A DNA stretch of 64,000 nt from Sphaeroforma arctica JP610 (GCF_001186125.1 NW_014040269.1:5493-69492), one strand, 5' to 3'. Shown: positions 259 to 31,170, counted from the stretch's first letter. The notes: generated by a model not told the origin, from the letters alone. Numbers and translations are program-made.

Positions 259-656
259 CCCTAATACTAAGTGCAGGGCAGTAGACCTATGAATGTGGAC
301 AAGTGTCATAATTGTATGACCTGACCTCATTCAAATATCTGATATGTTAAAATGGAAAAAGTATTAAATAATAAAACCATTAAAAACAATTTTAGAAAAC
401 TTATGTTCCTCGTGCTATTACGAGCACATTTAGGAGACTTCAGTATTAAGAGTACATTTAGGAAACTTGAGTTCCTCGTACTATTAAGAGTACGTTTATA
501 ATTTGCGTACTGTTTAAGAGAACGTTTATAATTTGCGTACTGTTTAAGAGAACGTTTATAACAGAGTCTAATGTGGAGGCCCGGCTTATTGCACCCTAAT
601 ACTAGGTGCAGGGCAGTAGACCTATGAATGCGGACAAGTGTCATAATTGTATGACC
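259..656. repeat. 63-bp direct repeat (259-321 and 594-656)
   Basis: CCCTAATACTA(A/G)GTGCAGGGCAGTAGACCTATGAATG(T/C)GGACAAGTGTCATAATTGTATGACC occurs twice with 2 mismatches. Confidence 0.9.
304..593 (-). mobile_element. Solo LTR-like copy related to the 5' LTR of Gypsy element 1
   Basis: TG...CA termini (TGTCATAA...TTATTGCA). Shares AATAAAACCATT, AGTTCCTCG-ACTATTAAGAGTACGTTTA and AGTCTAATGTGGAGGCCCGGC with 10306-10517. Contains internal tandem expansions. Confidence 0.6.
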
Positions 657-1954: not shown

Positions 1955-2499
1955 TTAACTCGAGTCCAGTTTTCTATAAATAGAATTAATAGTAGTACAA
2001 TGCACGTATCAACGGTTTTGAACGATATTCTTTTTTTTAAACATATTTTAAACTATTTTTTATTTTTTCTATTTATTTTAAAATAATGACATTTTTAAAA
2101 TTAGATATGTACAGTATTTTACTAAAAATATACCTTTTGTATGGCCGCCTTCTGTTCCATTTTCACTTTTTCGACTCTGTCTATTAGCTCTACTGCAATA
2201 AACCAATAGCATCGCCATCTCACCCACTGAATTTTAGATGGAGTTCGGGCCGTCCCGGAATTAATAAGTCTTCTATAGCGAAGTACGCGCCAAAAATTAG
2301 CACCGCCAACTTGTTCTATGAAATTAAACAGGGTGATTTTATGAATGAATTTTGAGGAAATTAACGTTTCTTGTACCACATGATGGTAGTAAATATGAAA
2401 ATGCTGTTACTTAAATTCAAAAGAGTAGGACAGGAGCGCGCTTTTTTTGTAGGGATATTAAGACGGACCTATAATTTTCGTTGTAGTATTAGCAGTTGC

Positions 2500-2784: not shown

Positions 2785-2809
2785 TACTTTAAATATGTTT
2801 ACTTGTTAA

Positions 2810-3130
2810 CTTGCCTGGCTGGGCTCAGGCTTATTGATCCGCTCCCCCCTCCAGTTCCCAAATCGTACTACTTTTTCACGTTTACGAAATGATTTTAAAC
2901 GTAATTGCATTTTGCGCTATGAGACCTGGAGCCCCCCTCATCTCTCCCCTACTCAGGGGCTTAGGCTCAGGGCTAGACGGAAGCCTCATAGCGTAAACGT
3001 ACTACGTTTGCACGTTTACTAAATGCTTTTGAACGTAATTGCTAGGATTGACTTGCCTGGCCAGGCTCAGGCTTATTGATAATATAACCTAAGAAGCGGG
3101 GGGAGGGGCAGGCTTAGGCTTATTGATAAT
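2810..3130. repeat. Mosaic of short direct and inverted repeats (possible MITE remnant)
   Basis: CTTGCCTGGC--GGCTCAGGCTTATTGAT at 2810 and 3052. CGTACTAC...CACGTTTAC-AAATG-TTTT-AACGTAATTGC at 2864 and 2998. Confidence 0.55.
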
Positions 3131-3699
3131 AATGCTATAAATACATCGCGGTGCCCATTGCCTATATATAATCATCTCAGTACTGTTTTCGCAGAAGGAA
3201 TTTTATTTAGTGTTTCGTTGCTGCTCTATTAGAAACTACGGTATGTTTCGTTGGGGCGAATCCGAGAGACTCATAAAATTATATCTTTAGAAGAAGAAAA
3301 ATACTCATTATGTCCATAGTTATTGCATTTTTTTGTCTGAAGGAACGGAAGTTAAACCTTACCCGCCGGGCCTCCACATTAGACTTAGTTTTTCATAGAG
3401 CGACAACGAAACACTAAATAAAATCCCTTCGGCGAAAACAGTACTGAGAGGATTATATATAGGCAATGTCTCAGCCTCACAATCTCTCAGAGTATTGCTG
3501 TTTTCACAAGGTATACCTAACTTTACTAAAAAGCGTTTTTTTATTTCGAATTTAACTATACTTAGACTTAACCTTAGCGTTTGATTACTCTAAGACGTTA
3601 ATATCGCCTTGATAGACCGAATCTTACACATTTTAAAGTTAACAAAGATATTAATTACTTAGACTACCTATACGTATATGTAGATAACTACCACGAAAT

Positions 3700-6600
3700 A
3701 GGGTTTACGGGTTTTAGGTTTTTATCTTGATTATCGAAAGCATCTGAAGTCAACTGAGCGATTGTACCGGCTATAAAGCGTGTACGGTGGTATGTATATC
3801 CTCTCTTATCCGTTCTCCATATAATGTCTTTAAACTCAGAACGATTAAGAGGGGCATTAGAGTCGTGTCTTCTTGCGAGAATAATCTAAGTAGTCGGAAT
3901 ACAACTAGTGCCTATGTTTAAAGCACTGGAACCGTCGGGTGTATTAACGTCAGCTACAGAGATTATATATGGTCCTATCCATTTAGATGTTTATACAGTA
4001 GCATCGGAATTACGTTGACGGATGTTAACTCTGTCTCTAACCCGATACTCTGCTATCTTTTTGGTAGCGTTCCATTTATTTTGCCTTTTTAATAAGGAAA
4101 TATTGCGTGATTCTCGCAAGCAAGGATATACAACGTTATAAATACATTGTACCTTCTCTAACCATGGTAACTCATGGTGATTAGGTTCGTCCTTGTTAAA
4201 AGGTATTTTTAACTCACTATATCTGCCACGAAAATAGGGAGCGGATGTTGTACCTGTAACCGGATCAGCACACTCGTCCATCTGTGTTTGTACCCACTTA
4301 AGGTGGTACGGTCAATCATCTGCATCATCCGTTAATGCAGTACGTAAGAAGAACTTAAGTCTTCTATGGCGCGTTTCATTCGCGCCCTGTGTTTGCGGTT
4401 TATATGGTACACCCCTTTTATGGCATATGCCTGATACGAGTACTAACGATTCCATTCCGTCATCGCAGAACTCGCTACCGTCATCAGTGCACATTATACC
4501 TGGCCACCTGTGGTCAGCAAAGACTTGGCAGTATAATTCTGCCACGGTCTGCGTACTCTTGTCCTTTAAAGGATAGAGCAAGTTATACCATGACGCCACA
4601 TCAAAGAAGTGGCATACGTAACGATCGCCTGTGTGCTCGGACGTGGGCAAGTCAACCAGATCAATGATGACCCTGCGCCATGGAACATCTTCAGTCACAC
4701 TCTTAAGCGGTGCGAACCCATAGCGCTTAATCTGGTTGAGATCACAGTCTGTACATGACTGATATACTCTGTCAACAAAAGTTGCCAGCTTAGGGTGCGC
4801 GATCCCATTTCGCTTAGCATCTTTAAGTGCATATACTACGTTCTGGTGCTTCAGCTTTTGGTTTTGCGTCAGCCAAGCAAGAATATTTTCATCATTGTAC
4901 TCCTCCAGAATAAAGGTAGGGTGTTGAGAATCCACTTGCGTGGTCTCTAAGTCTGTAGTGTTTCCAGACTCCTATCCTTCTTTCGCATGAGTGTCATAAG
5001 TGCGCTCGTGTGCGTTTGATACACCTGACCTATTTAATAGTCGCATTATATGTGTATATGCTTCGGGATTATCTTTCATTAATTCCTTTAAAAATAGGGT
5101 TTGAAAGACTTCGGTCTTGGACTTTATGTTATTAAACAGAGTCCTAGCTAGAGACTGACGCTTCTTAACATTAGTGTCATTAGTAGATTGTATTTCTTGT
5201 GCACAGACTTCAAGTGCTGTGTTGCCTTTGAACTGCTTAACGCTCAATTTAGTAGAGAGTGGAATATCTGATTATTTGACCTTGTTAAGGAAGGTCTCAG
5301 AAGGGGTCCATTTGGTTGTTCCAATGGGACCTATACGACATATTATAGTATGTCTCCCGGGCGTCTTCTGGACGGCTCGGGTACCATGATATAGGAAAGT
5401 ATCTACTTCCCTATTTAAATATTTTGGCTCCCATTGTATCATGCTTATTAATGTATTGAGCCATGAATCTTTACTCCGTAATGGGCAACACAACGTGATG
5501 GTAGCTTTGTGTATATGAACATAATTTAGTATTTGGGCAATTAACTGCCATGGTGGATTAGCCCTCGCATTATGTTCGGAAAGGTCTAGTTCCAAGGCAT
5601 CTCCTAAAGGATGATTTAAAGTCCTGTAATTCTTAAGTTGTGCATTATGATGTGCAACAAACATGTCAACTGTATGTGGCCCAAATATCTTTTGAGCCAG
5701 TTCAAACCACCTGGGGTTACATTTCCAAGCAGTGGCTAGTAACTCACGTACGGATTTATTAAAGTCCGGTACAAAGCGTGATAACATATCCGGTAAATGG
5801 TTATGTATCCCTGGTAGATGTTTGATATCAAAATGAAACTTTGATATTGTATCCTGCCATCGGCTCAGTAATTGAGAGTCTGGCTTCATTTCCTTCATAT
5901 ATTGAAAGGACTTCTGATCACACATCAGCGTAAAAGCTGTTCCGTATAAGTAATCGCGGAAGTGTGCTAAAGCTGCTACTATGGCTAGTAGCTCATGCTT
6001 CACAGTTGAATAATTCAACTGTGATGCATTCATTGATCGGCTAAAGAATTGTATATACCTAGGTTTATTAACTATAACCTGGTATAGTACACCTCCGAGT
6101 GCTAAGTCTCATGCGTCCGTTGCTATTTCAAAAGGCACGCCATCGACTGGTCCTTGTACAACAGGGGCTTGTTGGACTGCGTGCTTGAGCGCTTTAAATG
6201 CGTCATCAAACTCTTTAGTCCACAAGTCTCCTAGTTTGCCTTTATGACATCTTAAGTGTCCAAAGGGTTTAAGATAATCAGCCAAGTGTGGTACTCCATC
6301 TGAAAAGAAGTTTACAAACCCACACATGCTGTTCACATCTCTTCCTGTTGTTGTTGTTCGCCAATCTAACAAGTGTTCCACCTTACCGGGGTCGATTTTA
6401 ATACCTTCCCCAGATATACGGTAGCCTAAGAGCTGTATTTCGCTCATGGCGAAGTGACATTTCTTCTCGTTAATCTTGGTTTTGTTCGTTGAGTCTCTTA
6501 AGGACTCGCCTGACTAATGTGGCATGTTCGCCCTTAGTCTTAGAAAAGATGACTATGTCATCTATATAGACTTGCACGCTAGGTATGTATGCAAGCATTT

Positions 6601-7575
6601 CCTCCATTACTTGTTGGAAGAATACTGGTAAGGAGTGCAACCTGAAAGGTGCACCTCTAAACCTGTATTGTTTACCTTTCCAGGTAAAACTAAAGTGCTT
6701 ACGATGGGGCTCATAAATTTACATTTGATGATACCCCTGTGTTAGGTCTATGGATATAAACACCGTAGCACCTTCCATTCGTCTCAGTAACTCGTTTATA
6801 CGAGGGATATGGATACTATGAGTAGGCAATAACTTATTTATTGGACTCATATCTAGACATACTCTGGCTTTCTTAAATGTTCCGTCAAAGTTGTGTTGAT
6901 CAACTGCCAATAATGCTAACTTAACTGGCGTTTGTTGGTAAGTGATTTCGATTACCCCATCGGATAACCATTCCTCAACTTGTTCTTTAACTACAGCTTC
7001 GTGTCTCCAAGAAACATAGTTTCTTGAAGGGCATTTGGGCTTAGTAAAGTCTACCTTGGTTGAGTCAAGGCTGACATATTCGTCGTTAAAACGGAATTTT
7101 GCCCAATCTGTGATCTTTATCTTCTTATTTACTAGAATCAGATCCATGATTTTGTCCGCAAAGTCAGTTATTAATGCCTTGACTGTGTCTGACGGGGGCT
7201 TATATGGTTTCAGGCAGTTATCGTCTGATTGATCCTTTAATGGATCTATGTTATTTGGTAACCCAGTTACGGTTATACCCAGAGTGAGTAAGTCACTCAT
7301 TCCGACTATTAAGTCGTACTTCTGTGATATCTTAACTATCACAGCTTGGGTAGTGATATATCTAGCATCGGCCAGGGAGATTTTAACATATGTGGCCATT
7401 GTATCACACTTAGAAGTTTTGTCATCTGCTAAGATTAGGTGAGTAGTTTGAGTTCGCCTTTCAATGTCTTTCATTAATGCAAAGCGGTCGGATATACATG
7501 AAATTTCTGAACCAGGATCAATCAATGCAAGGACTTTATTTCCATTGCAATATACAGGGATTATTACACGCTCGT
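3700..7575 (-). pseudogene. pol of Gypsy element 1
   Basis: ORF fragments 6719-7525 (PR/RT), 6109-6447 (RT/RH), 5272-6033 (RH plus MTase), 4312-4935 (INT core), 3991-4281. A degenerate chromo-like tail (FKDIIWRTDKRGYTYHRTRF...TSDAFDNQD) runs to about 3720. Confidence 0.9.
5330..5727 (-). CDS. Dam-type N6-adenine DNA methyltransferase domain within pol of element 1
   Basis: Uninterrupted and in frame with RNase H: WKCNPRWF...FGPHTVDMFVAHHNAQLKNY...GDALELDLS...ANPPWQLIAQIL...ATITLCCP...W. NPPW at 5548-5559. Confidence 0.85.
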
Positions 7576-9843
7576 CTAAAGAGTCGTTCTATTTCCTTTG
7601 TAACGATTGTACCTGAAAGTACTTTCACTCCAACTTAATGTCGGGCTTTTGTCACAAGACTTGGCGTGATAGCCATTGGTCTTCTCACACTTGTCACACT
7701 TAGTAAGAAAGTGTGTACATGTGGATGCATGTCTGCCATTCCAATAACCGTTAGGGGTCAATTGGTACATATCATACCCACACTATGCGTCGGCACATTT
7801 CTTAATCTCCTTAAATGGAGGTTCCTTGTCCTTCGCCTCCGCGCGTGCCCGTTTATTGGGCCGCGTTGATTGAGTGGAGTCGCGAGCACGTGTCTGGTTA
7901 GGACGCGTCTGATGAGGTTTCTCATATGACGTCTGGCGTGAGAGATATCCTTGATCAGTGAGCTCGCGCGGTTTCTTATGTACCGCCTTCCCCTTCGAGG
8001 CTACTCGCGTGTGCGGGAAAAAAGGTGGATACAGTATCAAAAAACTGTTCCCACGTAAGTCGGGATAGATGAAACTTTGTTTCATGTCCCTTGTCTCGAG
8101 CTTCAGTGGCGTATTTACGTCGCAACTCGGTGTACAGACTTTCACGGTCGTTGTTCCCTATGTTCTTACAGAAAACATGCATACCAGGAACTCGTACCAT
8201 CGCTGCGCATTGTCTTATCAAATTTCAGAATATAACTCTGAATAGGAGTATTCTCAACTGGTTCAGTTAAGATTGAACTCAATCCTGGACTTCGCATGTC
8301 CTTGCTTAATAAGAACGTAACCAACCAACACATAGCTGGCCAGTCACGACAAGTGTCGAGCTCATGCTGGTGTTGCTGCAGGATCAAATAACTTGTTCCT
8401 GTAGGGTCAAACGACTGCATTAAAGCAGAAATCCATTGCTGGGGAGCGATATCATTCGTCTCCAGCATGACCGTAAACGCATTAAGCGTACGGGTTAGCG
8501 TGTCGAGGTCATGGTTGTTTATAAACTCGACTTGCTTGCTGTTGGCATCCCAGTTCGACTTAAGTAGACTGATCTGTCCTTTGTACTTCTGGTTATCCCG
8601 GTGGTCTTGCCCACGTTGGGCCTGAAGTAGCTGATCGATGCGCTTCTGCTTGATCGCGATCATATTAACAAAATATGATACGTCATCAGCACGGTGCTCG
8701 GCATGGGCGATTTCCATCTTAATGGTGTAATCGTCGACCGACTTATTAAGTTCGGTCACCTCGTCAGAGTGAAAATCCTCTGCGGGCTGGTGTAATGCTG
8801 TGCGATCGATTAAATTCGACATCGTTAACACGTTTACGGGAGTGTTTATTACCCCTTGTAAAGTCTATGGTCGAGGCCTTTCGGTGCTCTGTTCCTTGGA
8901 TAGTAGTTGGTATTATAATCTTGAGTGATTCATGCGTCTGGATAACATATCCAGTCTTAACTGGTTTCCGACGATTGTCATCCCAGTTGGGTAAAGGTGG
9001 CGGAGTATTTTTACCTGCCTCTAGGTCTATAATACCCTCAAGGACGGGCGACTCGTGGCCGGGCGTTAGAACAGGCGAATAATTAGCCTGGAGTTCTGGT
9101 GGTAGTACCTCATAAGGTATAGATAAGCTGAGCACATCTGGCTCATCTGCCACAGGTGTAGCGCTCAGGCCTTTACGCTTTTCGGGCGTAATTGCCAGTC
9201 GACGTTCTGTTCACTTCTGTAAGGCTTCAGTAATGCCCGGAGAAACATGCTCGCGTAAGTGCTGTGTATGTTTTCCTGATCTATACATTCGATCTACATG
9301 TTCAACAGTCATGCCTTCCATAAAGGCGGCTAACTGATTCTTAAGATCAGTGTTTTCAGTAATTAACTTACCTATGCGCGTTGATTCAGTGGTCTCGGAC
9401 GTAGATTCGGGTTTGCCACTTGAGCTTGCCTCCTCTTCTGGTTCCGGTATAGGTACCTTCTGAGATTCGTCTTTGTCCCATATAATTGGGGACTTTTCTT
9501 TCTGAGTTTCGTCAGAAGAGTTGGTTGGGGCGTCTTGAGACGTATCGCTTGCCTCACTTCTTGGCTTCGTAAATGCAAGCTTTGAAGTTGAGGCAATAGT
9601 TGGCCCTCGGGCTCTATCTGTAGGAGTAGTTTTAATCGGAGTGGCTACATCCTCATCCGAGGCATTGTCTTGACTATTATTGTCGGAGACAAGTGCTTCG
9701 GCTACGGTGCGGTTAAACGCATCGGCAGCAGCTGCGGTTGCTTCTGCGGCAGCGGTAGCTGTTGCAGCGATAGCAACTTTTCTTTCCATCATTTTACGTT
9801 CGGCCTTGCGTTTCTTTGCAGGCGTATTGTCTTTCTTTGTCAT
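7576..9843 (-). pseudogene. gag-like region of Gypsy element 1
   Basis: Fragmented ORFs 9211-9843, 8764-9153, 8166-8831, 7783-8221 and 7576-7770 lie upstream of the protease. C-terminal Cys/His motifs (CDKCEKTNGYHAKSC). Confidence 0.7.
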
Positions 9844-10305
9844 AATCTTAACTTATGACATCAGTCTTATTCTCTTAAGGAATGACTGTGCTTAAGAAAA
9901 AATTCGTGGTAGTTATCTACCTTTACTTTTAAGTAGTCTAAATAATGAATACCTTTGCTAAATTTGAAATGTGAAGTTTCGGTCTATCAAGGCGATATTA
10001 ACGCCTTAGAGTAATTAAACGCTTAGGTTAAGTCTAAGTATAGTTGAATTCGAAATAAATAGACGAAATGAGGTATTAAAGTTAGGTATGCCTCGTGAAA
10101 ACCGCAATACTCTGAGGGATTGTGAGGCTGAGACATTGCCTATATATAATTCTCTTAGTACTTTTTTCGCCGAAGGGATTTTATTTAATGTTTCGTTGTC
10201 GCTCTATTAGAAACTACGGTATGTTTCGTTGGGGCGAATCCGAGAGACTCAAAAAATCCTATCTTTAGAAAAAAAGAAAAGAAGACTAACCAATAACTTG
10301 CCACT

Positions 10306-10517
10306 TGTCAAGAATTACCGACTTAGCCTTCATCAGACTGGCACATCTGGTTGGCTAAACGGAGGATAAACTAAGCAACGCTAATAGAATGCATTAATTA
10401 ATAAAACCATTTTGGAAACTTAAGTTCCTCGCACTATTAAGAGTACGTTTAGAGTTTACGTACTGCTTAAGAGTACGTTTATAACATTGAGTCTAATGTG
10501 GAGGCCCGGCTATTACA
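10306..10517 (-). repeat. 5' LTR of Gypsy element 1 with adjacent PBS-like site (10290-10303)
   Basis: Minus strand reads TGTAATAG...CTTGACA, a 2-nt spacer, then TGGCAAGTTATTGG. Homologous to 304-593. Confidence 0.7.
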
Positions 10518-11572
10518 CTGATAGTACGATCAAATGGATTGAGAGGCTGAAGAATGATCGTTTCTGTAAGGAGCAGACTGGTCAACCAAATCTACATATA
10601 CTTCCTGCTTTATTTGAATGGCTAAACAAAGACAACACACTCGGCGACATGTCTATGTGGAATCAGTAAATGCGACAGAAATGTATACAGATCGGTATTC
10701 TCGAGGACTGTGCACTAATTGATAGTATGGACGACTCAGATGATGTCCTATTACGATCAGGGGAAAGAATAGAAGTAAGTTATCGACATGGCATCGGTTT
10801 ATAATATTCATATGTGTTTTCCGAAAGTCCCGCAATAACCCGGGGAGTATAGGGTGATATTTTGACGTAACTGGGGATATAGCAAAGTATGTATATATTA
10901 CATTCGTCATAGCAATCAGTTATGTATTCTAACATAGACTGCCTTTTCCTACAACCAAGCAAACAGCCAAATATACGCCTGAGTGCACTCGTATTGCACT
11001 CCATTTGAACAATGATGTGGGAATACTTATTGGTGATGCTGCAGAGTGTAGGATGGAGAAAGCGGGCTGTGACGTGACTGCACAAAATGTGTGTTATAAC
11101 GATTACAAATCATTTCCAACGTTGAAGTTTATCGTTATATTCGAGGGTGGAATATACATCGTAGACATTGCAAAATCATTCACTGGATCTTCTACCGATA
11201 CTGGTATGCACAACTCAGAGAACTATGGACTGCGTATGGTAAATTGTGATGGCAGTACAAAGATTGCATATATGTTCGATAAGGGGTCGATAGATCGCTA
11301 CGAGCTGGATAAACTTGGCATATGCGTGTGTACACCTAGAAAAAATGATTGGTCAATATGCGTTTAGTGAGGAACGGTCACAGGCAGACCGTGATATAGC
11401 GCGCGAGAGAATTACTATCGAACGCAACATGGAGGAGTTACGCAATTATGCCGGTTTCGGGGGTCTGAATAAAACATTGTCTGAGATAGATATAGCTGAC
11501 CATGAAGCGCAGGTGGCACGAGGATTGGTGAACTTGGATGCACCAATCACAGATTGGTGGATGCCAAAATAA
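10518..11572 (+). pseudogene. ISL2EU/Harbinger-type DDE transposase (DDE_Tnp_4-like), 5' part interrupted by the LTR
   Basis: LIGDAAECRMEK...QNVCYNDYKSFPTLKFIV...FTGSSTD...YMFDKG...CTP, then (frameshift) QYAFSEE...DIARERITIERNMEELRNY. Upstream HTH-like region (KLSTWHRFIIF...). Confidence 0.8.
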
Positions 11573-14264: not shown

Positions 14265-14490
14265 TGCTTGTGGTTACTTATATGCGCGTACAAATGAACT
14301 ACTTATGTGTGCACATATACACATAAATATATTTTTCTTATCAGTATGTTACAGTCAATATTAACTATCAAATTATTGGCGCGCACTTCGCTATAGAATA
14401 ATTTTTAATTCCGGGACGGCTCAGACGGGCCAGACCCTGTTTATTAATTCAGTGGGTGAAGTGCTATATTTTCATCTCTTTTGTCTAATA

Positions 14491-15112
14491 CGACACCCGT
14501 CACTATAAAATTATTAACGCCCGAGCCCTAGTATTCCTATGTATATGCCTATATGGTGAATTTGTTTTGAATTTATGTTCTAAAAATACAATTGCGGTTA
14601 ATGAAATCACAGAATAGGACAAAATCCCTTGGACCTGAAATTTACAACAGAAGGGGACAAAACCAAATTCAACATTGTTGAACTACAGTGCAATTTGTGC
14701 AAACCAAACGATTATATTTTACATAGCCCTCTTTTCTTCTCTTGTGTTTTATGTATATTATAAGAAGGCTGTGGGCTATGAAACGAGGTGTTTTTTAATA
14801 ATATTCAGAACTTCAGAAGTATGGATCCACGAATTCATGCTCACACAGGTTTAACAGAACATTGGCTCTCTCTAGCTAGTCTGAGGCGTTGTTTTGTATT
14901 TCAGGTGACATGTGTAGATTATGTACCGAAAACTGATACTTGAGTGTTGTAATAACTTGTATCGGTAATTTTTTTTGCGGTGTACATACTGAATAGTTCG
15001 GTACTTGTGGCCATACGTGGGCACATAAATATCAACCCTACCTTTGCGAACGGACCGGATGCGGTTTTGGACACGGGCTCGGGTGATAATAATTTTATAG
15101 TGACAGGTGTCG
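14491..15112. mobile_element. Tc1/mariner-type MITE
   Basis: 38-bp TIRs CGACACCCGTCACTATAAAATTATTAACGCCCGAGCCC / GGGCTCGGGTGATAATAATTTTATAGTGACAGGTGTCG, flanked by TA on both sides. Confidence 0.8.
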
Positions 15113-15149
15113 TATAGGCTAGGTCATGTATGTACATCTTTTGAATGTC

Positions 15150-15601: not shown

Positions 15602-18600
15602 TGATATCGGAGCAAACGCAAAGCCCGTTGGATTCGTCAAGATAGTTGGCCCGCGCAAATATCCAACTGCCACGTTTGCGATTTTTCCAAGTTAATACCA
15701 TTATAGGTACACAACAGCAGTAGGTCGTGGGTTAAGTATACCTGTTGGGGGACTCATAGTACCAAGTGACTGCCAAAAAGAAATAGGAATAGGGAAATAT
15801 TTGTCCGGTGGACGGGGAACACTAGATATAAGGCCAGCAATAGTATAAGGCCATGAGGAGGCATGCCAAGTAACTGGTGCTCATTTTTTAGAAATGTGTC
15901 CGGCGCATGTGGAATAACAATAGGCATAGCTATTAGCGAATGGAAGGAGAAAGGAAGCTATGAACATGAAGCCCAATGTGGCAAGATAGCGATAGCCTTA
16001 CAGTAGCGAGTAGCTAGGAAACGGCGGAAGAACTGGTGGTAAATGGGCCACGGTGGGTTAACTAATACGAAAGAACCCGTAAGGTTGAATTATTCAGCTC
16101 GGCAACGTTCGGTACCCCCCAATGCTGCACAATAACGGGGAAGATGATGACATGTGGAACTCGCATAGAGATCAACATCAGACACCACCCATTTCTTGAA
16201 GAAGAGGGAAATCCATGCGGGATTGATCATCAACTCACCTGAATATGCATGAGGGTGAGGAGATAGAGTTGCAACTAGCGAAGGATGCGGCGGAATCTCA
16301 TCCACCGGGCCCCAAGTAACATGTTTATGAACAAAAAGCATTCTGGGGTCCAATTGCGCAGGCTGGCGGGAAAGCCTATCTGCTACGTAATTCCATTTAC
16401 CGGGTATGTGACGGATATCCACGCGATGGTGGCGGATTTTCTCCACGAGACGCTTAAGGCGATCACCACGAGCAGTCTTAAGGAAAGAGAAATTAACATG
16501 GAAGAAAGTAAGCACATTAAGGTGATCCGTCCAGACAGTTAGGGCATGATAATTGGCAGTAATAGTCATCTCCTCCTTATCAACAGCATAAGCAATAGCC
16601 ATAATTTATAGGTCACAAATATGATAACGACGTTGGGCCGCATTCAATTTGGTACCTCGGTATGAGAATGGAAAAAGACGGTCGATGCCATTAATACAAA
16701 AACCGTCAACACGAGGGTCAACCACCTGAGATTAATCAGTAACCACGGTGGAATGGCAAGAGTATGTACTTGCAGGAGCCAGGAAAAGTTTCTCCCGCTC
16801 AGAAAGTGTTTCTTGCTGGGTTTACCTGACTCGTTTATGGGCCGGGAGTGTAAAATCAGGGGTCGTAGGGAAGGGGAAGGAACACTTCTGAGACGAAAGG
16901 CTACCGAGAGGTCGTTGCTGTGGCAGTGGGGTAGGGGTACGTTGGGCAGCAAGGCGGCGCTTTTGGCGGGATAGGCTTTTGTCTAAGGCAGCAGCAGCAG
17001 TATTGAGTCGCTTAGAACTCAAGGGTTGAACCCAATCCTTTGGGAAAGGTGCAGGCAACTCACCCTGACGAGGAATCCAGACAAAAAGTCCACAACCAAT
17101 GCCAATGGGGCATGCGTCAACAAACATGTGGAGATAATGGGCAGGGTCAGGGGAAACTAACATAATGGTACCTTGAATAGCCTCGTTAATCATCGTATTC
17201 GCAGCATGACAATCTGCAGAATAATGAAAACGTGTATTCTTAGACGTTAAGTCCGTCAATGGGCCATCATAATGGCCAAATTGGGGATATATTGAGACCA
17301 CCAATTGAGAGTGGCACAAAACACTTCGACTTTGTCCTTGGTTTTTGGTTGGGGCATAGAAACAATATCATTGGCGGTATTCTGTAATTGATGTATAATT
17401 ATGGATAGTTTGGCGACCATAAAATATTTTGGTACTTCCCTAAGGAGCATTGAAAGACACTTGGAAGCCCCCGTAAACGGATTTTCATTTTAACACAAAT
17501 ACGCGCATACGCAAGCTTATCATTCCAGTGCTGAGAAATTGCCTCGCGGCTATAGTGGGCCTTGGCGCCGTCATCGACAAAGTGCTTGAGGGCTTGGCGG
17601 AGGGCAGCAAATAAACCATCCACAAAGGCTTGCAAATCAACGGTCATCATTTTCACCCCGAAGACTCCATTGACAGGTTGCCAAACATCACCTGTAGACG
17701 TTATCCAGATAAGATACCGACGAGAGCGCTTTGTGCAACGCAATTGGTTAAAGCTGCATGCCATATACATTGTAGAAACAATGTCACCCCGCCGGATATG
17801 ATCTAAACATTCCTGCCCAGTAAGGCATGGGGTAGGAAACAACGTCAAAATTTTCATTGTTAACCTTATAATTTTGGCAATAGCGAACATCCTTGATAAT
17901 CTTAGGCTTCACACGGGGGTTCTTTCGTGCCAAAACAGCACTAGACATATAGGGTGAGAAATAATCTCCAGGTTCTATGACACCGCGAGCGTAGTCACGG
18001 GCGCATATCTCTTGTTCTCATTGTATATACTGTGGGTTCTTGAGCTTGTATATGATACGCTTAGGCCTGGCATTTGCCTTGATTTTTATATCGACCTCAT
18101 AATCACGGATAGTATTGTGATTGGATTCGTCGTAACGAATGCTATTGAACAAATCTTTGAACTCTTTGACCTGTTGTAGTGTTTTGTTCAAATAAAGAGC
18201 AGTAGCATTAACTCCCATCCCAGTTGTATTCCTCAAGGGTACCCGGAGAATCACGGCAACGGCGTTTGAATTCAACAACAGCAGCCTCATCAATAAGAGC
18301 TGGTACCAAGAGGCCAATATAAGGGTTAGACGGAGACGCCAAAGAAGATGGAGACGCAGACTGAATGACAGGTGCACGTTCTGAACTGAAGGCCAAATGT
18401 GGGTTGTTCGGTAGATTTTTTCCAGTAGGGTTTAGGGTTTTTGGTGCGCAAGAGAATATATCTCTGAGTAATGAAGCTTAATAAAAAGTCGCATCCATTA
18501 GGAATTTCATCAGAAAGGTAGAAAACAGAGTCCTTTGTTTCAAAATAACTCGTTTGGGAAGCATTAGTAAATATCTGTATAAGCACAGAGATATCAGTTT

Positions 18601-20743
18601 GTTGAGTAGGGGGTTGAAGCGTAACACCTCCGAACGGCTTCATTAATACATGCTCGATGTTCTGGATTTTCAGACCCTCAGATATTGCCAACTGTTTATT
18701 GACGAGATTTGGTATAGCGCTATCATTCACATAGTATAACACACAAGAAGAGACGAAGTAAGCAGGAACCACCGGGCCCACGCAATATCAATCGGCGCGG
18801 ATATTTAGGGTACCAGAGAAATTGTTATATGGGCGGGCATTGGGCAACTTGGTGACCAGGTTTGTAGCAGTTGTAGCACACATTCTCACCGTCAGCGTTT
18901 TGCCTGGAGTAACAGGGTTAGCTGTAGGTGTGCGGGAGCGTGCGGGGCGCACATCTTGGGACTGGGAGCGACCATGATTATCATTGAACGCAGGTGTAGT
19001 AGACTGGGAGCGGGAACCAACGCCAGAATCATTGCGTGAAGAGCTGGAATCATAATCGTCAGAACGGCCGTGTCGAGGACGAGAAATACCGGCACGGTCG
19101 CCATGAGAGTCAGAGTCACGACGGTTGCCACGGCCATTAACATACCCTCGGTCGCGACTGTCATGATCGACACGATCACGGTTGCGATCTGCACGATGGG
19201 TGTCATCACCACGGCGAGTGTTACCGCCAGCATTGTTCCGACCAGCACGACCTTGATCACGGGTAGTGGGGCGTCCTCGGTCTCTCTCACGAAGGCGTTT
19301 AATTGCTCGTGGTTCCGGAGGGTAATTGGAATACTTTCGAACAAACGATTCCTCCAGGATTGCAACACCGATAGAGCACCCTGCCTGCTGGTTATGAAAC
19401 CCAATGAAGAAAGCATTTTCCAAATTCTCCAACCAAATCTGGAAGAATTCAGCGATACGCTGATGAAAATTATCCAGGTAACGTTCAATCAGAGTGGAAT
19501 CGTGGCGTAGCACGTGGTAAAGGCGATCCATGTAAAAAGGGTCACTGGTCAACGGCAGGAGTAAAGCGTGGACAGAACGACGGTCCTGGCTAGCACCCTT
19601 ATGGAGATTCTCCAACAACATGTCGTTGATAATGAACTCATTTTGAGTAGACAGCTTGGGGGCAGTACGCTTCCATGCTTTCGTATAAGGGGTCACGATG
19701 GTAGAGCTCGGGGCGCTCAGGGACCCATGTTTTGAGGGATTCCTCGTACACGAAACCGTCGCCCCAGTCCTTAATCTCACCATTCTCATCGAAGGCCCTC
19801 AGCAGCACGTAACATCCAGCGGCTGATTTAGGAGGAATATTATCCTTCTCGTCATCAGATTCGTCTTCAGTTTCACGCTGTTGACGCTGTTCATTCTCCT
19901 TAGCTTTGACAGCCTGCTCCTAAGCACGCTGAGCTGCCCGCTCAACTTTCTGTTCGTCCGTAAGGTTGGTTTCCTCATCAACTTGGGCATTCTTATCTTC
20001 AATACTCCTGACCAATTCTTTAATTTTAGCCTGGGCACGTAAGAGTTCAACACGTAATTCCAAGGCAGACATCTGTGGGGCCTGTGTCTCCAAGTAAGCC
20101 TTAGCTCTCAGGGGTACACGGTTGGTTAATCCTTGGTGCACGTAAGCACCTTGGATTTCTTCCAGATCACGGTAAGCGAGCATATGAATTCACGCAGCCA
20201 ACAGATCCGGTAATAAGGGAGCCCCTTATCGGGTCCTTTGAGGGAAGCCGCGATTTAGAAAATACGGGATTCCTGCCCCATCTTGAAGAATAGGTGGCGC
20301 ATAGGTCCAAATTCCCGCAACACGTAAGCAATCAATTAAATCGCCGTTGTGGAAGGGGTAATGAACAGGTCAATCAAATGCCAATAGGAAGTGTCCAAAT
20401 ACTTCATTAAGGCATTGATCTTGGCACTCCGTCCGGAAGAAGTAGACGTATCATCCAAGCTACGGAAAGGTTTCTGTACAATCTAATTTTGAATTTTGCG
20501 TACCCAAGGCACAATAGGGCGATCGAGGTCGAAACGCAGCAGATAAGGCTCGTCATTGTCTTTCTGGGCATTGCCCTTGCCGTTGTTCTTTGGCATTGTT
20601 GATAAGAAAGCACACTCTACGTAACAGGAGAGCAAACGCAAAGCCCGTTGGATTGGTCAAGGCTGTTGGCCCGCGCAAATATCCAACTGCCACGTTGGCG
20701 GGGTTTCTAAGGTGTCACTGGTTTAGGACCACCAGGTTTTACA
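15602..20743 (-). mobile_element. Gypsy-like LTR retrotransposon 2 (degenerate): gag-PR-RT-RH-Dam MTase, no integrase visible
   Basis: About 80-bp direct repeat at 15610-15692 and 20630-20711. Zinc knuckle CYNCYKPGHQVAQC (about 18838-18880), RT HFVDDG, RNase H MFVDACPIGIGCGL, WTDH and RHIPGKWNYVADRLSR. Confidence 0.82.
15850..16230 (-). pseudogene. Dam-type adenine methyltransferase domain of element 2
   Basis: INPAWISLFF...DVDLYASSTCHHLPRY...* FNLTGSFVLVNPPWPIYHQFF...AIAILPHW...* ...PIVIPHAPDTFL, in one frame through two stops. NPPW at 16048-16059. Confidence 0.8.
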
Positions 20744-21456: not shown

Positions 21457-24400
21457 TTTTAGGACAAACCTAGTTTGTCCACTTTTAGGTCTTAAACCTC
21501 AACCGAGTTTTGTTCCCGACTGCCACGCGACTATTGAACGGTCCATGTGCAGCAGAATATTCTGTTCATTATATGTAAGTTTTTCATCTTGTAATAAAAG
21601 TTTAGTTACTAAGAAACATCTGAAGGATAGGTATATATAGGTTATGGGCCTTTTATTGACTTACATATCCGTTCACTAATCTACGATGCTTTCTAGCTGA
21701 CCCAAAATCCCAACCATCTCTTGGTCGATCCTGACTGGATTACTGATCTTGATATGGCATCTACGGCCACCAGTACAAATGATCTTTCTCCTATTCTTCA
21801 CTACACCCCTCCTACTGAGGTAGTTACTGAAACCTAAAGGAATGGACACCTGCCCAGACGGCCTCCATGAAAGAGCTCTTTATAGATGGTCTTTCTGACG
21901 TCGACAAGTACCATACTCAGAACGTCTATCTCATGTCCTTTAAGAATCGCGATGGCATTACCATTTACCATATGCTAGAGTATCTTGAGAAGCTGCATGC
22001 GACGCCTTCGCTCTCCTCCAATGACGAAGCGATCCCAGGCGTTGCACGAACTACACCAGCCGCTTAACTAACAATCCAGGATGTTGTACGGATGATAAAT
22101 GAACTTAAGACAGCCACCTAAAAGCCTAACAATCGTCAAATGCTCTGTTTTGTGTGTCAGAAGTCGACACACGTCTCCTCTCTTTGTCCTAAGGCCTGCG
22201 GTCGTTGTGGCGACATGACCCACAACAGTAGATCCTGTACCGCACAGTCCCTGAAATGCACACAATGTTCAAAGAAAAAACATTTAGCGATTGTGTGCTC
22301 AAAACGTAATAAACATCATTTTCCCTATCCTGGCATCTCTACCATTGCACGCATAACAATACCCACTATTTGTAAAGCTACGCAATCTTCTCTATACATA
22401 ACACTGACTCACTACTTGTTGACGGAGGCGCCACAGTAAATTATATGCACTGCTTAGCACGGAAAATACTCACAAACATAGAAACGGGTAAATTTCTTTT
22501 ACGGCTGGCCGATAACAGCATTAAATACATCACTGTCCGCGGGCACATGACCTCAACTAGGCTCTACATACCTGGATCCAGATCTTACCCAAGGACTCTT
22601 CGCCCAAAACAATCTACAAGATTGTGGTTTAACCGTAAAGTTTACCGGCGATAGCCAAGAATGCTACCTTGGACTCCGCACGTCCTCCATTACGCTACTA
22701 CCAACTTCAAGTGGCTACTATGTCTCCTACGACTCACTACAACAACTATTCTCTCCTCCGAAGGCCTCACTTCTGACTACTTCACGTCCACTTTCTACCC
22801 TGCCCACCACCCGCGCCCCTCTACTGGCTAATCCATCTCACAATCCTACTGTCTTTCTCCCACCGTCTAACGTAGCTACGATAACGGCCAGCAACTCAGC
22901 GTCACCTACCAATTTATCTAGCATCACACCTAACCCTACCAATTTATCTAGCATCACACCTAACCCAACGCAACCTTCCCCCCCTCCAACAACATTAACT
23001 TCTCTTCCAGAAACTACCCACCCTCAATCTTCAACAACACGTACACCACACACTACTATGACATCGCAATCGCAGAGTCACTCTCCGTATGGCAAAGTAT
23101 TGAGAATATAACACTCACACATCCTTCCCCTCTTAACGTCACGACAGATAAGTGGGTGTTCAACTCCGAACTTCTTAAGGCGGCACTAGACTTCTTAGGG
23201 GATACACCTATACTTGACATATGTGCTTCTAAAGTCACTGCCTAATTTCCCCGATACGTGTCACCAGAAGGTGGTGGTATAGTATAGCCCTCGACTGGTC
23301 CGATATAGATCTCCTCCAGGAACTGGCATATGTTTGTCCACCATGGTCACTCATCAAGGACACACTCGCAGCAAATACAAAGGCAGCTAGTACATTAGTT
23401 CTTGTCGCACCCCTTCGCCCTGCAGCTCCTTGGTGGCCGGCACTCCTCTAGCACATCTACAAAGTCAACCCTTTATAGTTCAGAACACGGCGACTTGGTA
23501 CCTCTTCGGCTGGTAAACCCAGGTTGTGATCTCAACCTGGCTATTGCCTATGCGAAGGCTAACCCAGAATTTCCATAACATTGTAACACATGTATTGAGG
23601 GCAAACTTAAAGCTACCAATGTCCCCCATCAATCTACTTACACAATCTATGGACCCGGCGAGAGGTTCCACACTGACCTCCAGGGGCCCACTCCCACCAA
23701 GTCGATATGAAAATATCTACATTATGAATATGTTTGATGCAAGTACGCGTTACGGTCTTCACAAAGCCATCGCTAACGAGCAAACCATGTTTAATAATGA
23801 TAATCAATTACTTACGGACGTCCCAGCCTTCTGGGTACCGGACACTCTTACGGCCGATAACGACACGCCGCATACAACTCAGACGTCCGCCACCTTACTC
23901 TCCATCGCAGAATGCCAAAGTCAAACGTCCACATGACACACTGAACGGTTTGATTCGATTACTACTTATTGACTCCGGGATGCCCCCGTCCTGCCTGGGA
24001 AGATGCTCTCCTCTGGGCAGGCGATATTCGTCACGGGACTCTCGGAGAAAACGACAAGCTCCGCACTCCCGCACAAACATTTCTCCAAGAGGCTCACGCA
24101 CGCGATCCCAAAGCTCGGTTCGGCTGTGTAGTTATGTTTTAACTCCGCGGAAAAGCTGCCACACGCGCCACGAAGCATGAACCACAAGTGGGTTTTGGCG
24201 TCTTGCTCGGTCGTAGTTTTAACTCTACCCCCTACTGTTACCGAATACAGAAATTCGCTACGCAGCGGCAAATCGATACCCAAGATGTTCAATTTATTGC
24301 GGAAGAAAACGCACAGTGGTCTCCCGATGGGCGTACTGCCACCCTCTCCACGACTACTAGCTCGTATAATATACATCCTGACTGGTCCCTAACGAACAAG

Positions 24401-26480
24401 CCCCTCTGACACTGCTATTCCTTTTCAAGGACATATTCTTCCGGTTGGCCCCGCTTGTACCAGACGTTCAACAGGCCAATCTACCGCCTGAACCCCAAAA
24501 CGCACCACTGCCCCCCGCTTTCACTGATCCTTCCCCTTCACCTACCACTAGTTACACCCCACCCCACCTACTACACACCAGCCCACTCCGACCTCACAAC
24601 CCACCGCACACACCCCCACTACCTTACCCACAACCCACTGCACACACCCCCACTACCTTACCCACACCCCAAACGCTCCACCTCCCTCATCTTCCACTCA
24701 CACCTATGCCTCCTACCCCCTGCCACCCCTCCTTTCACTGTCACTTCTCACCAACCCATTCCACCACTGACAGCCCCTTACCGCCCACACCAGCCACACC
24801 TCCTGTAATATTTTTTACGCCGCCGCACCCATTCCCCAGTTCTTTAATCACTGTCCCTCGCCCCTGCCAACAACCACCACTCACATCTCTCCCCAGACCT
24901 GACACTCGTACACCACCGGCGCCTCCACCACCTAACTCTTCTTCATTCATCGATTCCCTCCCTCTACACCGCATGTCGCCTTTGTCGACCACATTTAGCG
25001 AGGCCAGGCCACCCGTCGACTCGGCCGAAGCCTCGATCGCCTACCTCCGTGAGCACCCTGCCCACATTTCTTCCGTGCGCACTATTACACCCACGACTCG
25101 CTCCAAAATCACCCTGTTTGAGGCTGCATCTTTCCAAGACCCTAACGTCACCAAATCTATTGCAAGCGCACAGAAATCCAAATCGTGGCCTGCATGGGCC
25201 GCTGCCATAGACACCGAGCGTGCTCATCATATCCGGAATGACCTCGCTGATGTCATCCCCCTGACGGACGTCCCCAAGGACTCAAAACATCATTCATAGT
25301 AAATATGCATTTGCACTTAAACATGACGAGCATGGCCAGCTGACCCGCTATAGGGCGAGGATGGTTGCTCGTGATGACGAGCAACAACACAGCGATAGTT
25401 TCACCGATACTTACGCACCGGCAGTCCATTCTACCGCATACGTCTCTTCTTTGTTAAAGCTACTTTTGAACGGAAAGTGGTCCACTACTTCGACGTTACA
25501 TCCGCCTATCTTTACAGCAAACTGAATTTTCCAGTCTATATGCTGCCACCAAAGGGGTCTGTCGAACTGGGTCACTAGCCTCTTAATCACGTCCTCAAGC
25601 TGAAGCGCGGCCTCTATGGACTTAAACAGTCCGGCCGACTCTGGAATTTAGACATTGGTGCCAAGCTTCGCCACGCTGATTTTCAACAATCGGACGCTGA
25701 CGAGACCATCTGAATTCATCGTTCCCAGGACCTTGTCGTCGTCATTTATGTCGATGAGATTCTTCCGGCCGTTGACCCACAGACTACGGACGATCAATGA
25801 CTCTACATACAACTCTCTACCCACTACAACATGACTAGCCTGGGCATAGCTCGTCATGTCGTCGGGTTCCGTGTTATACAGGATGGATCAGGGACTATCT
25901 CCCTTTTACAAGACGCATATATATACAGCGTATGATCGACACATTCCCATGTCCAGGACACTCCTCCGAAACCAACACCTGGCACTGACACACATCCAGG
26001 AGAACTAACTGGCGAGCCATTCTCTGGTCGATTCCGCAGTCTTCTTGGCGCCCTGAGCTTTGCTGTCAATATGACACGTGTCGACATAGTTTGCACACTT
26101 AGCCAACTCGCTGCATTTTCTGCTGCTCCATTGGTTCCGCACTACGATGCTCTCATTAGGATCCTACTCTAACTTGCAGGGACGATTAATTTTGCACTTA
26201 CATTTCATCCTCGTACATCCACTCAGACCTTGGATATCGCCCTGTTATCTTATGCGGACTCCGACTGGGCAACAAGCCCTCTCACCCGGAAATCACAAAC
26301 AGGTACTCTTATCTGTTTCAACTCTAACCCCATATATTGGCGGTCGCAAAAATAGAAAACGGTTTCCATCAGCTCTGGAGAAGCCGAATATATCGCAAGA
26401 TCTGATACAACCCGCTCTAAAGCCTGGATTCACAACCTAATGACGGCATTTGGCTACAAATTAACTCTTTCCAACCCGCT
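21457..26480 (+). mobile_element. Ty1/Copia LTR retrotransposon (degenerate): gag-PR-Dam MTase-INT-RT-RH; 3' end lost
   Basis: PBS-like GGTTATGGGCC (21640-21650) and three CCHC knuckles (22140-22300). Integrase: CNTCIEGK, HTDLQGP, PPYSPSQNAKV. RT: RARMVAR, DVTSAYL, LKRGLYGLKQSGRLWN, IYVDE. RNase H: YADSDWA...RKSQTG...SSGEAEYIA. Copia domain order (INT before RT). Confidence 0.92.
23147..23490 (+). pseudogene. Dam-type adenine methyltransferase domain inside Copia pol (not visible in the supplied ORF track)
   Basis: Manual translation: DKWVFNSELLKAALDFLGDTPILDICASKVTA*FPRYVSPEGG, then (frameshift) ALDWSDIDLLQELAYVCPPWSLIKDTLAANTKAASTLVLVAPLRPAAPWWPALL. CPPW at 23335-23346. Confidence 0.78.

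Positions 26481-31163: not shown

Positions 31164-31170
<7 letters not shown>
28995..31170 (-). mobile_element. Ty3/Gypsy chromovirus-like element 3, 3' portion (MTase tail-INT-chromodomain-PPT-3' LTR)
   Basis: HEIGYH...CRPC zinc finger, WDHIQVDI, QSDEGGEF, FGPYVV and chromodomain MEYLVRWKESSPIWE. PPT GGGGGGAG (29192-29199). LTR 28995-29191 with TGTAGTAAA...TTTTATTACA termini. Confidence 0.9.

What the first reader, a model, noticed from the sequence alone, without database searches (positions are those of the whole stretch)
4312..6033. Gypsy element 1: uninterrupted RNase H-MTase frame followed by a DDE integrase
Seen: ORF 5272-6033 runs without a stop from RNase H through GPHTVDMF...ANPPWQLI. 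A spacer of about 110 aa follows, then an integrase with all three D,D,E motifs and GPY. There is no tyrosine recombinase. This is the clearest single-element evidence that a DIRS-style RH-MT arrangement sits in an integrase element.
Basis: partly seen in the sequence, partly recalled or inferred. Interest (0 to 1): 0.75.

Follow-up and report, generated by a model that had tools for sequence, protein, structure and literature searches.

The report
Decayed Gypsy retrotransposon with adenine-methyltransferase domain
This is a broken copy of a Gypsy-type jumping gene whose enzyme string carries an adenine-methyltransferase-shaped domain between RNase H and integrase; the design is real and not an assembly error, but a May 2026 preprint already describes such elements, and whether the domain methylates anything is untested.

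Summary
On the minus strand lies a 7.4-kb Ty3/Gypsy element (3159-10517): gag, protease, RT, RNase H, a Dam-like (PF05869) domain, a linker and a D,D(35)E integrase with GPY, and no tyrosine recombinase. The copy is dead: 7 stops and a frameshift in pol, and the "uninterrupted" frame starts inside RNase H. It is not an assembly chimera. Two intact relatives (52-59% identical) hold PR-RT-RH-Dam-IN in one ORF, and other family copies lack the stop between Dam and integrase. RT/RH and Dam trees both group it with Abeoforma whisleri proteins, so it fits the "Ichthyosporean DAM-LTR" lineage of Fernandez-Moreno et al. (bioRxiv, May 2026). This scan also found DAM-LTRs before on other DNA. Small additions: the nearest solved fold is the RNA-cap methylase PCIF1/CAPAM, and most of the lineage carries a divergent chromodomain, which the preprint says it lacks. 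In passing, a Copia element in the window also carries a Dam-like domain; the preprint's text never mentions Copia. Most likely role: marking new cDNA with 6mA (about 45%, inferred). Verdict: already known, interest 0.2.

The parts
3159..10517 (-). Whole element: decayed Ty3/Gypsy DAM-LTR copy of a multi-copy family
   Evidence: Repeat-level contig cover from about 3160 to 10517, with unique flanks on both sides and variable loose ends behind 10517; domain order.
10137..10517 (-). 5' LTR, 381 bp, TG...CA (inner boundary inferred)
   Evidence: Outer end from loose ends at 10517; begins TG and ends CA on the minus strand; inner end inferred from the direct repeat at 3156-3301 = 10134-10279.
7654..9843 (-). 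gag region, broken by stops and frameshifts; ends in a Cys/His knuckle-like motif at 7698-7654
   Evidence: ORFs; motif positions. No Pfam gag hit, so the gag label is inferred from position and the knuckle.
7295..7561 (-). Aspartic protease (LIDPGS at 7525-7508)
   Evidence: Pfam Asp_protease_2 E 6.6e-06.
6418..6868 (-). Reverse transcriptase core (YIDD at 6568-6557), with a stop at 6719-6721 and a frameshift at 6478
   Evidence: RVT_1 E 4.5e-14; tblastn with P0001 and P0002.
5776..6130 (-). RNase H; a stop at 6109-6111 follows the first catalytic Asp
   Evidence: RT_RNaseH E 9e-27 when read through with X.
5293..5757 (-). Dam-like (PF05869) N6-adenine methyltransferase-fold domain: D-x-F motif (5673-5659), NPPW motif (5559-5548)
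   Evidence: The AlphaFold2 model of the intact relative P0001 has pLDDT 91.8 and matches N6-adenine MTases.
4860..5274 (-). Poorly conserved linker (22% identity to P0001), with stops at 5272-5274 and 4972-4974
   Evidence: At 5274 at least 99.5% of summed contig depth in each of 4 runs shows another letter, so that stop is nearly private to this copy.
3967..4857 (-). Integrase: eroded HHCC finger (4857-4744), D 4662, D 4485, E 4377, GPY 3975-3967; stops at 4312-4314 and 3991-3993
   Evidence: rve E 8.9e-06.
3724..3850 (-). Tail in the position of a chromodomain; it aligns with the chromodomains of relatives but is not recognisable on its own, and is cut off at about 3724
   Evidence: Tail alignment; no significant profile hit; hhalign probability 4%.
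3365..3724 (+). Inverted piece of the family's 5' end (3386-3697 = reverse complement of 9903-10216, 88%; 3365-3392 matches 10510-10483) that replaces the end of pol, the 3' UTR and part of the 3' LTR in this copy
   Evidence: Other copies run on differently before 3725 and join 3328-3330 to 10287-10290.
3159..3330 (-). Partial 3' LTR (last ~170 nt), about 90% identical to the 5' LTR over 144-146 nt
   Evidence: Contigs with 0 differences span the unique flank into it (records 1 and 25).

Best explanation
This is a dead genomic copy of a Ty3/Gypsy LTR retrotransposon of the DAM-LTR kind, whose intact relatives encode protease, RT, RNase H, a Dam-like domain and integrase in one frame, and whose Dam-like domain likely N6-methylates adenines in the new cDNA so that fresh insertions would inherit the host's active 6mA mark. 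Shown here: the domain order, the single-ORF relatives, the Gypsy-type RT, the MTase fold with the NPP[WF] motif, and grouping with Abeoforma whisleri elements in both trees. Inferred: the polyprotein is packaged and cut by its own protease, so the MT travels with RT-RH or with integrase in the particle and pre-integration complex. Integration is by ordinary DDE chemistry, not tyrosine recombination. The domain came once into this Gypsy lineage from a DIRS-type element (direction taken from the preprint; my trees are unrooted on this point). Host AMT1 would then keep up ApT methylation on the insertion (the preprint's model). I put the identity at about 0.93 and the DNA-methylation role at about 0.45. 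This copy makes no functional Pol. The host is probably an ichthyosporean (inferred, about 80%).
For: P0001 and P0002 (2 hits among 220 candidates) carry RT-RH-Dam-IN in one ORF and match the window collinearly at 52-59%. Of 30 proteins that I picked from the 150 listed, 10 have RH-Dam-integrase in one ORF and 3 more have Dam-integrase. The MT is as conserved as RT and RH (69% against 64% and 66%; linker 22%). NPPF or NPPW occurs in 121 of 174 Dam-like domains. RT/RH tree: element 1 lies in a 14-row clade (100/99) with Abeoforma P0144, apart from the DIRS-like rows (100/100). Dam tree: a 19-row clade (100/98) with 3 Abeoforma proteins. The model matches phage Dam proteins best in BFVD (E 7e-9, TMq 0.75). 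The preprint reports more 6mA and more expression on DAM-LTRs than on other LTRs in A. whisleri and S. arctica.
Against: The preprint found no 6mA gain when DAMs were expressed in Dam-deficient E. coli. Iyer et al. (PMC4738411) call the DIRS MT domains likely inactive. P0002 has CPPW instead of NPPW. The best solved-structure match is an RNA enzyme. The AU test did not reject holding element 1, P0001 and P0002 together with the DIRS-like rows (delta lnL 20.5, p-AU 0.195), so the position of the long DIRS branch is not fixed by my data. No clean target-site duplication and no tRNA-type primer site were found. The host was not identified by a host gene.
Confidence: 0.8

Rival explanations
1. Same element, but the domain is kept as a non-catalytic SAM- or nucleic-acid-binding module (for example holding the RNA template or positioning integrase). 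The 6mA seen on DAM-LTRs would come from host AMT1 acting on transcribed copies.
For: Negative E. coli assay; Iyer et al. expect DIRS MTs to be inactive; P0002 keeps the domain at 69% identity with CPPW; 53 of 174 domains lack NPPF/NPPW.
Against: NPP[FW] and the D-x-F-A motif are the commonest states, and the three Abeoforma proteins keep NPPW. The model aligns from residue 7-8 of T4 and E. coli Dam onwards, which suggests that the SAM-binding half is present.
Confidence: 0.3
2. Same element, but the domain methylates RNA like PCIF1/CAPAM: it would N6-methylate the cap-adjacent or another adenosine of the element's own RNA, or the RNA strand of the RT intermediate, rather than double-stranded DNA.
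For: The top PDB matches are all CAPAM (Foldseek E 3e-5, TMq 0.63; VIA Z 10.5, rmsd 2.8 over 129 residues, against Z 7.8-7.9 for T4 and E. coli Dam). Iyer et al. place DIRS MTs in the PCIF1 clade. A negative dsDNA assay is what this would predict. 'PCIF1' has 0 occurrences in the preprint (listing).
Against: No phage PF05869-type Dam turned up among solved structures (0 sequence matches), so CAPAM may win by default. In BFVD phage Dams rank above viral PCIF1-like proteins (TMq up to 0.75 against 0.57-0.66). CAPAM binds the cap with help from a helical domain that this 155-aa module lacks. Identity to CAPAM is only 11-15%.
Confidence: 0.15
3. An assembly or nesting chimera of a DIRS RT-RH-MT block and a Gypsy integrase.
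For: No listed contig piece spans the whole element, and the left end of this copy is rearranged.
Against: Independent single-ORF relatives; no N gap; one frame from 6477 to 3703; a protease is present and RT-RH is Gypsy-like; other copies lack the MT/IN stop.
Confidence: 0.02
4. A hybrid element with DIRS-like inverted terminal repeats that replicates by a DIRS-like route but integrates with a DDE integrase.
For: A 312-bp inverted repeat (88%) joins the two ends of this copy, similar in length to the longest DIRS ITRs (316 bp).
Against: The inverted piece cuts off the end of pol. Other copies continue differently before 3725 (26 records in X1, 4 in X16; read by eye, their letters continue the integrase tail as in P0001 and P0002). 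Contigs join 3328-3330 to 10287-10290, as a normal LTR would. The ends read TG...CA.
Confidence: 0.03

Closest known systems
Ichthyosporean DAM-LTR lineage (Fernandez-Moreno et al., bioRxiv 10.64898/2026.05.21.726589, 22 May 2026; Pirum gemmata, Abeoforma whisleri, Sphaeroforma arctica)
   Same: Ty3/Gypsy organisation with a Dam domain in Pol; NPP motif; both the Dam and RT/RH domains group with A. whisleri proteins; no recognisable chromodomain in this subfamily.
   Different: This copy is a pseudogene with a rearranged 3' end. The preprint says the lineage lacks chromodomains, but 11 of 16 clade members that I tested, including Abeoforma P0144, score against a chromodomain profile built here (E 6e-8 to 1e-3). 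The main text does not state the Dam position for this lineage, and I could not see Fig. 2B or the supplements.
DIRS1-like tyrosine-recombinase retrotransposons (RT-RH-MT pol; Piednoel et al. 2011, PMC3266345)
   Same: MT domain of the same family directly after RNase H.
   Different: No tyrosine recombinase; has a protease, a DDE integrase and TG...CA LTRs; RT-RH is Gypsy-type.
Chloro-Ochrophyta DAM-LTR clade (same preprint)
   Same: Dam flanked by RT and integrase.
   Different: Described from chlorophytes and an ochrophyte; none of its sequences could be identified among my unnamed hits, so the relation was not tested.
Phage Dam family PF05869 / phrog_111, and PCIF1/CAPAM
   Same: Same N6-adenine MTase fold and NPP[FWY] motif.
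   Different: The phage enzymes are stand-alone proteins; CAPAM has WW and helical domains and acts on capped mRNA. Here the bare ~155-aa core sits inside Pol.

Membership tests
Ty3/Gypsy LTR retrotransposons | pol order protease-RT-RNase H-integrase | tested here: met
Ty3/Gypsy LTR retrotransposons | RT/RH of the Gypsy type | tested here: met
   Trees (DIRS-like rows apart, 100/100); bit scores 176-265 against 32-77. Caveats: the references are database hits labelled by architecture, not curated elements, and the AU test did not fix the DIRS attachment point (p 0.195).
Ty3/Gypsy LTR retrotransposons | D,D(35)E integrase with GPY/F module | tested here: met
   rve E 8.9e-06.
Ty3/Gypsy LTR retrotransposons | Two direct LTRs, TG...CA | tested here: inconclusive
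   One apparently whole LTR (10137-10517) and one partial direct copy (3159-3330, about 90%); the rest is replaced by an inverted piece.
Ty3/Gypsy LTR retrotransposons | Target-site duplication, primer-binding site, polypurine tract | tested here: inconclusive
   The 5-bp flanks match at 3 of 5 positions; no TGG after the LTR and no self-priming match of 6 nt or more; the PPT region is lost in this copy; no host tRNA set was available.
Ichthyosporean DAM-LTR lineage | Dam (PF05869) domain with NPP motif inside a Gypsy Pol | tested here: met
Ichthyosporean DAM-LTR lineage | Dam domain in one clade with the ichthyosporean elements | tested here: met
   19-row clade, 100/98, with three A. whisleri EukProt proteins. 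I assume these are among the preprint's sequences; its tables were not seen.
Ichthyosporean DAM-LTR lineage | No chromodomain | tested here: inconclusive
   None detectable in element 1, P0001 or P0002, though a remnant aligns in position. 11 of 16 clade members, including Abeoforma P0144, do score, so the feature does not define the clade cleanly.
Ichthyosporean DAM-LTR lineage | Ichthyosporean host | tested here: inconclusive
   No genome is held. A host ORF is in NCBI, UniRef, nr, EukProt and MetaClust with its name withheld; the Atlas gave only generic WD40 clusters. The only named members of the element's clade are from Abeoforma.
Ichthyosporean DAM-LTR lineage | Raised 6mA and expression of insertions | not testable with these tools
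   Needs modified-base long reads; no RNA holder was listed.
DIRS1-like elements | Tyrosine recombinase ORF | tested here: not met
   Six-frame Pfam scan with stops read as X: none, and the length is taken up by gag-pol.
DIRS1-like elements | RT-RH-MT order | tested here: met
DIRS1-like elements | Integration without a DDE integrase | tested here: not met
   A DDE integrase and a protease are present.
DIRS1-like elements | ITRs with internal complementary regions | tested here: inconclusive
   An ITR-like inversion exists in this copy, but other copies do not appear to share it; the junctions could not be examined more closely.
PCIF1/CAPAM | N6-adenine MTase fold with NPPF-type loop | tested here: met
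PCIF1/CAPAM | WW domain and helical cap-binding domain | tested here: not met
   The ~155-aa module follows RNase H directly; no WW or PCIF1 Pfam hit in the element. Not a member; a lead on how it may work.

The most novel reading that the evidence does not exclude
The Dam-like domain of DAM-LTRs is a particle-borne RNA methyltransferase of the PCIF1/CAPAM type. It marks the element's own RNA (cap-adjacent m6Am) or the RNA:DNA intermediate instead of chromosomal DNA. That would explain the failed E. coli DNA assay and why DIRS elements keep the domain in hosts without 6mA.
Probability: 0.15. Interest if true: 0.7.

Novelty: already known. Interest (0 to 1): 0.2.

Why it matters
If the model holds, DAM-LTRs are transposons that write an activating epigenetic mark on their own new copies, and the function of the DIRS-type MT domain has long been unknown. 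This locus adds little to that question, because the kind and most likely the lineage were described in May 2026 and the copy is dead. What is useful: intact single-ORF relatives (P0001 with NPPW, P0002 with CPPW) form a natural pair for an activity test. The structural closeness to PCIF1/CAPAM says RNA and hybrid substrates should be tried. The lineage's chromodomain has been overlooked. The same window shows the domain in a Copia element, which the preprint's text does not cover.

Tried and rejected
Whole-genome copy survey: no genome is held. Single-sequence AlphaFold2 of the window's MT gave pLDDT 44 and was discarded; the 24-row alignment with P0001 first was used instead. A sequence search of the PDB with the MT profile found 0 matches. 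The window's own MT got no PHROG hit, while 4 of 5 alignment members hit phrog_111. Rfam on 2800-10800 found 0 matches. No RNA holder was listed among sequencing runs, which is no evidence on expression. The first Dam tree (36 rows) supported the RH-Dam-IN group only at 76/94; with more rows and without the decayed elements 2, 4 and Copia it rose to 100/98. The AU test against a DIRS placement was not significant. Chromodomain in element 1: no significant hit. Host identification by a host gene failed. There is no CpG or ApT depletion in the element (observed/expected 0.91 and 0.99). A closer look at the 3330/3365/3724 junctions could not be had, so whether the inversion is a real rearrangement or an assembly error in this copy is open. 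The wide VIA search of the PDB was not run. Earlier findings by place returned nothing. Rejected: DIRS membership, assembly chimera, ITR-bounded hybrid.

Full report
OBSERVATION. The element lies on the minus strand. It holds the C-terminal part of RNase H (Pfam E 2.8e-23) and then a Dam PF05869 match (E 0.0022, below the curated cut-off). The quoted motifs are present. Downstream comes an integrase with D 4662, D 4485 and E 4377 (35 residues between the last two) and GPY at 3975-3967. A six-frame Pfam scan of 3156-10517 with stops read as X found protease, RT, RNase H, Dam and rve, and no tyrosine recombinase. So the outline holds. 'Uninterrupted' holds only for part of RNase H plus the MT: the first catalytic Asp of RNase H is cut off by a stop at 6109-6111. 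From the protease onwards pol has 7 stops and one frameshift at 6478. This is a pseudogene.

ANATOMY. Contigs of 4 of the 24 listed runs were laid on 2900-10700. Cover is at repeat level from about 3160 to 10517, with unique flanks on both sides and variable loose ends behind 10517; 59,536 records were laid from X1 alone, at 90-100% identity. Summed depth is no copy number, but the family is clearly multi-copy. The minus strand begins TG at 10517, and the repeat shared with the left end stops at CA at 10137, giving a 381-bp LTR (inner boundary inferred). The left end keeps only about 170 nt of the 3' LTR (about 90% identical). Between it and pol sits an inverted piece of the family's 5' end (3386-3697 against 10216-9903, 88%), which looks like a DIRS inverted terminal repeat. 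It does not appear to be a family feature: it cuts off the pol tail, other copies run on differently before 3725 (26 records in X1, 4 in X16), and contigs join 3328-3330 to 10287-10290 as an ordinary LTR would. Whether it is a true rearrangement or a local mis-assembly is open. No clean TSD (3 of 5) or primer site was found. At 5274, 3992 and 6721 nearly all family depth shows another letter (at 5274, 99.5-100% in 4 of 4 runs), so those three stops are close to private to this copy. The other stops are not among the rows shown (402 rows hidden). Insertions seen in other copies at 6478 and 7646 suggest that pol is one frame and that gag and pol are fused (inferred).

NOT A CHIMERA. A search with the MT region among longer proteins gave 2 hits of 220 candidates, P0001 and P0002. 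Both are single ORFs with RT-RH-Dam-integrase, P0002 with a Pfam protease as well, and both match the window collinearly at 52-59%. A profile search added P0003 and P0122-P0126 with the same order (25 hits in all). The exhaustive search found 10,161 proteins at E <= 0.001. Of 30 that I picked from the 150 listed, mostly the long ones, 10 have RH-Dam-integrase in one ORF and 3 more Dam-integrase. There is no N in the element. Against P0001 the MT is 69% identical, RT 64%, RNase H 66%, the integrase core 58% and the linker 22%, so the MT is kept under the same constraint as the core enzymes.

PHYLOGENY. In RT/RH trees (55 rows; 44 rows) element 1 joins P0001 and P0002 (100/100) inside a 14-row RH-Dam-IN clade (100/99) on the Gypsy side. 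The DIRS-like rows (RT-RH-Dam with no protease or integrase; my label, from architecture) form their own side (100/100). Its RT-RH scores 176-265 bits against 21 Gypsy Pols and 32-77 against 14 DIRS-like Pols. Against this, the AU test did not reject grouping the three with the DIRS-like rows (p 0.195); the long DIRS branch is loosely attached. Five other RH-Dam-IN proteins (P0151, P0158, P0159, P0168, P0192) fall outside the 14-row clade in the RT tree, as repeated capture would predict. In the Dam tree (46 rows) the clade reappears with 19 rows (100/98) amid DIRS-like domains; an earlier tree with the decayed window copies had only 76/94.

THE DOMAIN. An AlphaFold2 model of P0001's MT from a 24-row alignment has pLDDT 91.8. 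In BFVD the best matches are phage N6-adenine MTases (E 7e-9, TMq 0.75), followed by giant-virus PCIF1-like proteins. In the PDB the top six are CAPAM/PCIF1 (Foldseek E 3e-5; VIA Z 9.5-10.5, best rmsd 2.8 over 129 residues), then Erm/KsgA (Z 8-9) and E. coli and T4 Dam (Z 7.8-7.9). The alignment to Dam runs from residue 7-8 to 259-270 of those chains, with 112-114 residues aligned. This suggests both halves of the catalytic domain are present and only the target-recognition part is missing, whereas the preprint says that eukaryotic DAMs lack CD-1; only end points are given, so this is a hint. NPPF or NPPW occurs in 121 of 174 domains, and D-x-F-A is the usual first motif. P0002 has CPPW.

WHAT IS KNOWN. 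Fernandez-Moreno et al., bioRxiv 10.64898/2026.05.21.726589 (whole main text read; figures, reference list and supplements not seen) report DAM domains in Ty3/Gypsy LTR elements. They define five lineages, one of them 'Ichthyosporean DAM-LTR' in Pirum, Abeoforma and Sphaeroforma arctica. They find more 6mA and expression on these than on other LTRs, find no activity in E. coli, and propose that DAM marks RNA-DNA intermediates and host AMT1 maintains the mark. Iyer et al. (PMC4738411; passages) place DIRS MTs in the PCIF1 clade and think them inactive. Piednoel et al. (PMC3266345; passages) define DIRS1 structure. A review of m6A/m6Am RNA methyltransferase structures (PMC8287941; passages) describes CAPAM. 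Other papers were seen as search listings only. The unseen supplements may list this very family. Earlier notes of this scan report DAM-LTRs in other genomes and cite the same preprint; I had found the preprint before. The host is probably an ichthyosporean. S. arctica is my guess, from the Abeoforma kinship, a host ORF held by NCBI and EukProt and my recall of which of the three species has an NCBI annotation; this was not tested.

ONE CORRECTION TO THE LITERATURE. The preprint says the lineage lacks chromodomains. With a profile built from 36 chromodomains of the homologue set, 11 of 16 clade members score at E 6e-8 to 1e-3 in a search of those 16, including Abeoforma P0144. The five misses are P0001, P0002, P0145 (E 0.18) and two proteins without a GPY/F tail. 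Element 3 of this window also has one. Element 1's subfamily keeps only an eroded remnant in the same place (hhalign 4%).

MECHANISM AND VERDICT. Intact members should replicate as ordinary Gypsy elements, carrying the MT into the particle as part of Pol (inferred). The likeliest use is N6-methylation of new cDNA or the hybrid so that insertions enter active 6mA chromatin (about 45%). Rivals are a non-catalytic module (30%) and a PCIF1-like RNA methylase (15%). Chimera and ITR-hybrid readings are at 2-3%. The finding is real, already described in kind and probably in lineage, and represented here by a dead copy: interest 0.2.

Noticed in passing
window 21800-26600 (+); Dam-like region 23117-23520: A decayed Ty1/Copia element (zinc knuckles, protease-like motif and integrase-like region read by eye; RVT_2 E 9e-26) carries a frameshifted Dam-like domain (E 1e-11, CPPW motif) between the protease-like motif and the integrase-like region. 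An intact Copia polyprotein with Dam exists too, P0271 (gag-knuckle-Dam-protease-IN-RVT_2), with Dam before the protease. 'Copia' has 0 occurrences in the preprint's main text, and one paper search and one search of earlier findings listed no Copia-Dam report. This may be newer than the finding itself.
   Followed up: partly
window 15610-20732 (-); Dam-like 15829-16260: A second, very divergent LTR-like element with short direct repeats (82-103 nt, 15610/20630). Its RNase H-like region is followed by a Dam-like domain with NPPW (E 5e-16) close to the element's end; I saw no integrase after it. Its Dam is a long branch outside element 1's clade.
   Followed up: partly
window 29620-31190 (-): A third Gypsy element: the tail of a Dam-like domain next to the N gap (31195-31622; weak, E 4e-6, 0.08), then integrase (rve E 1.4e-5) and a clear chromodomain.
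   Followed up: partly
window 62580-63990 (-): A fourth element, cut by the window end: RT-RNase H-Dam (NPPW, E 2e-12), grouping with the RH-Dam-IN clade in the first RT tree. It has a 94-nt tandem duplication in RT (63768-63955).
   Followed up: partly
window 27100-29030 (+): A decayed ORF set ending in a GCR1_C domain (E 1.4e-5), which looks to me like a Crypton-type DNA transposon (label recalled; Pfam gave no tyrosine-recombinase hit). It is 17 kb away and unrelated to element 1.
   Followed up: no
window 379-594 (+): A piece of the same family's LTR end (matches 10403-10518 at 73-90%) with internal ~30-nt repeats: a remnant of another insertion.
   Followed up: no
window 2249-2298 and 14371-14420; 14488-14528 and 15075-15115; 1505-1562 and 1902-1961: Three pairs of short inverted repeats (41-60 nt, 85-93%), possibly ends of DNA transposons or MITEs.
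   Followed up: no
window 33278-33961 (+) and about 34500-53200 (-): Host genes: a single-exon ORF held in NCBI and EukProt (looks AhpD-like, recalled) and a long, many-exon WD40-repeat gene (looks DMXL/rabconnectin-like, recalled).
   Followed up: no
proteins P0162, P0191, P0258: Other Dam-like fusions among the hits: an AP-endonuclease-Dam-RT-RH-integrase zinc-finger protein (P0162), dUTPase-Dam (P0191) and RH-Dam-Tudor (P0258).
   Followed up: no
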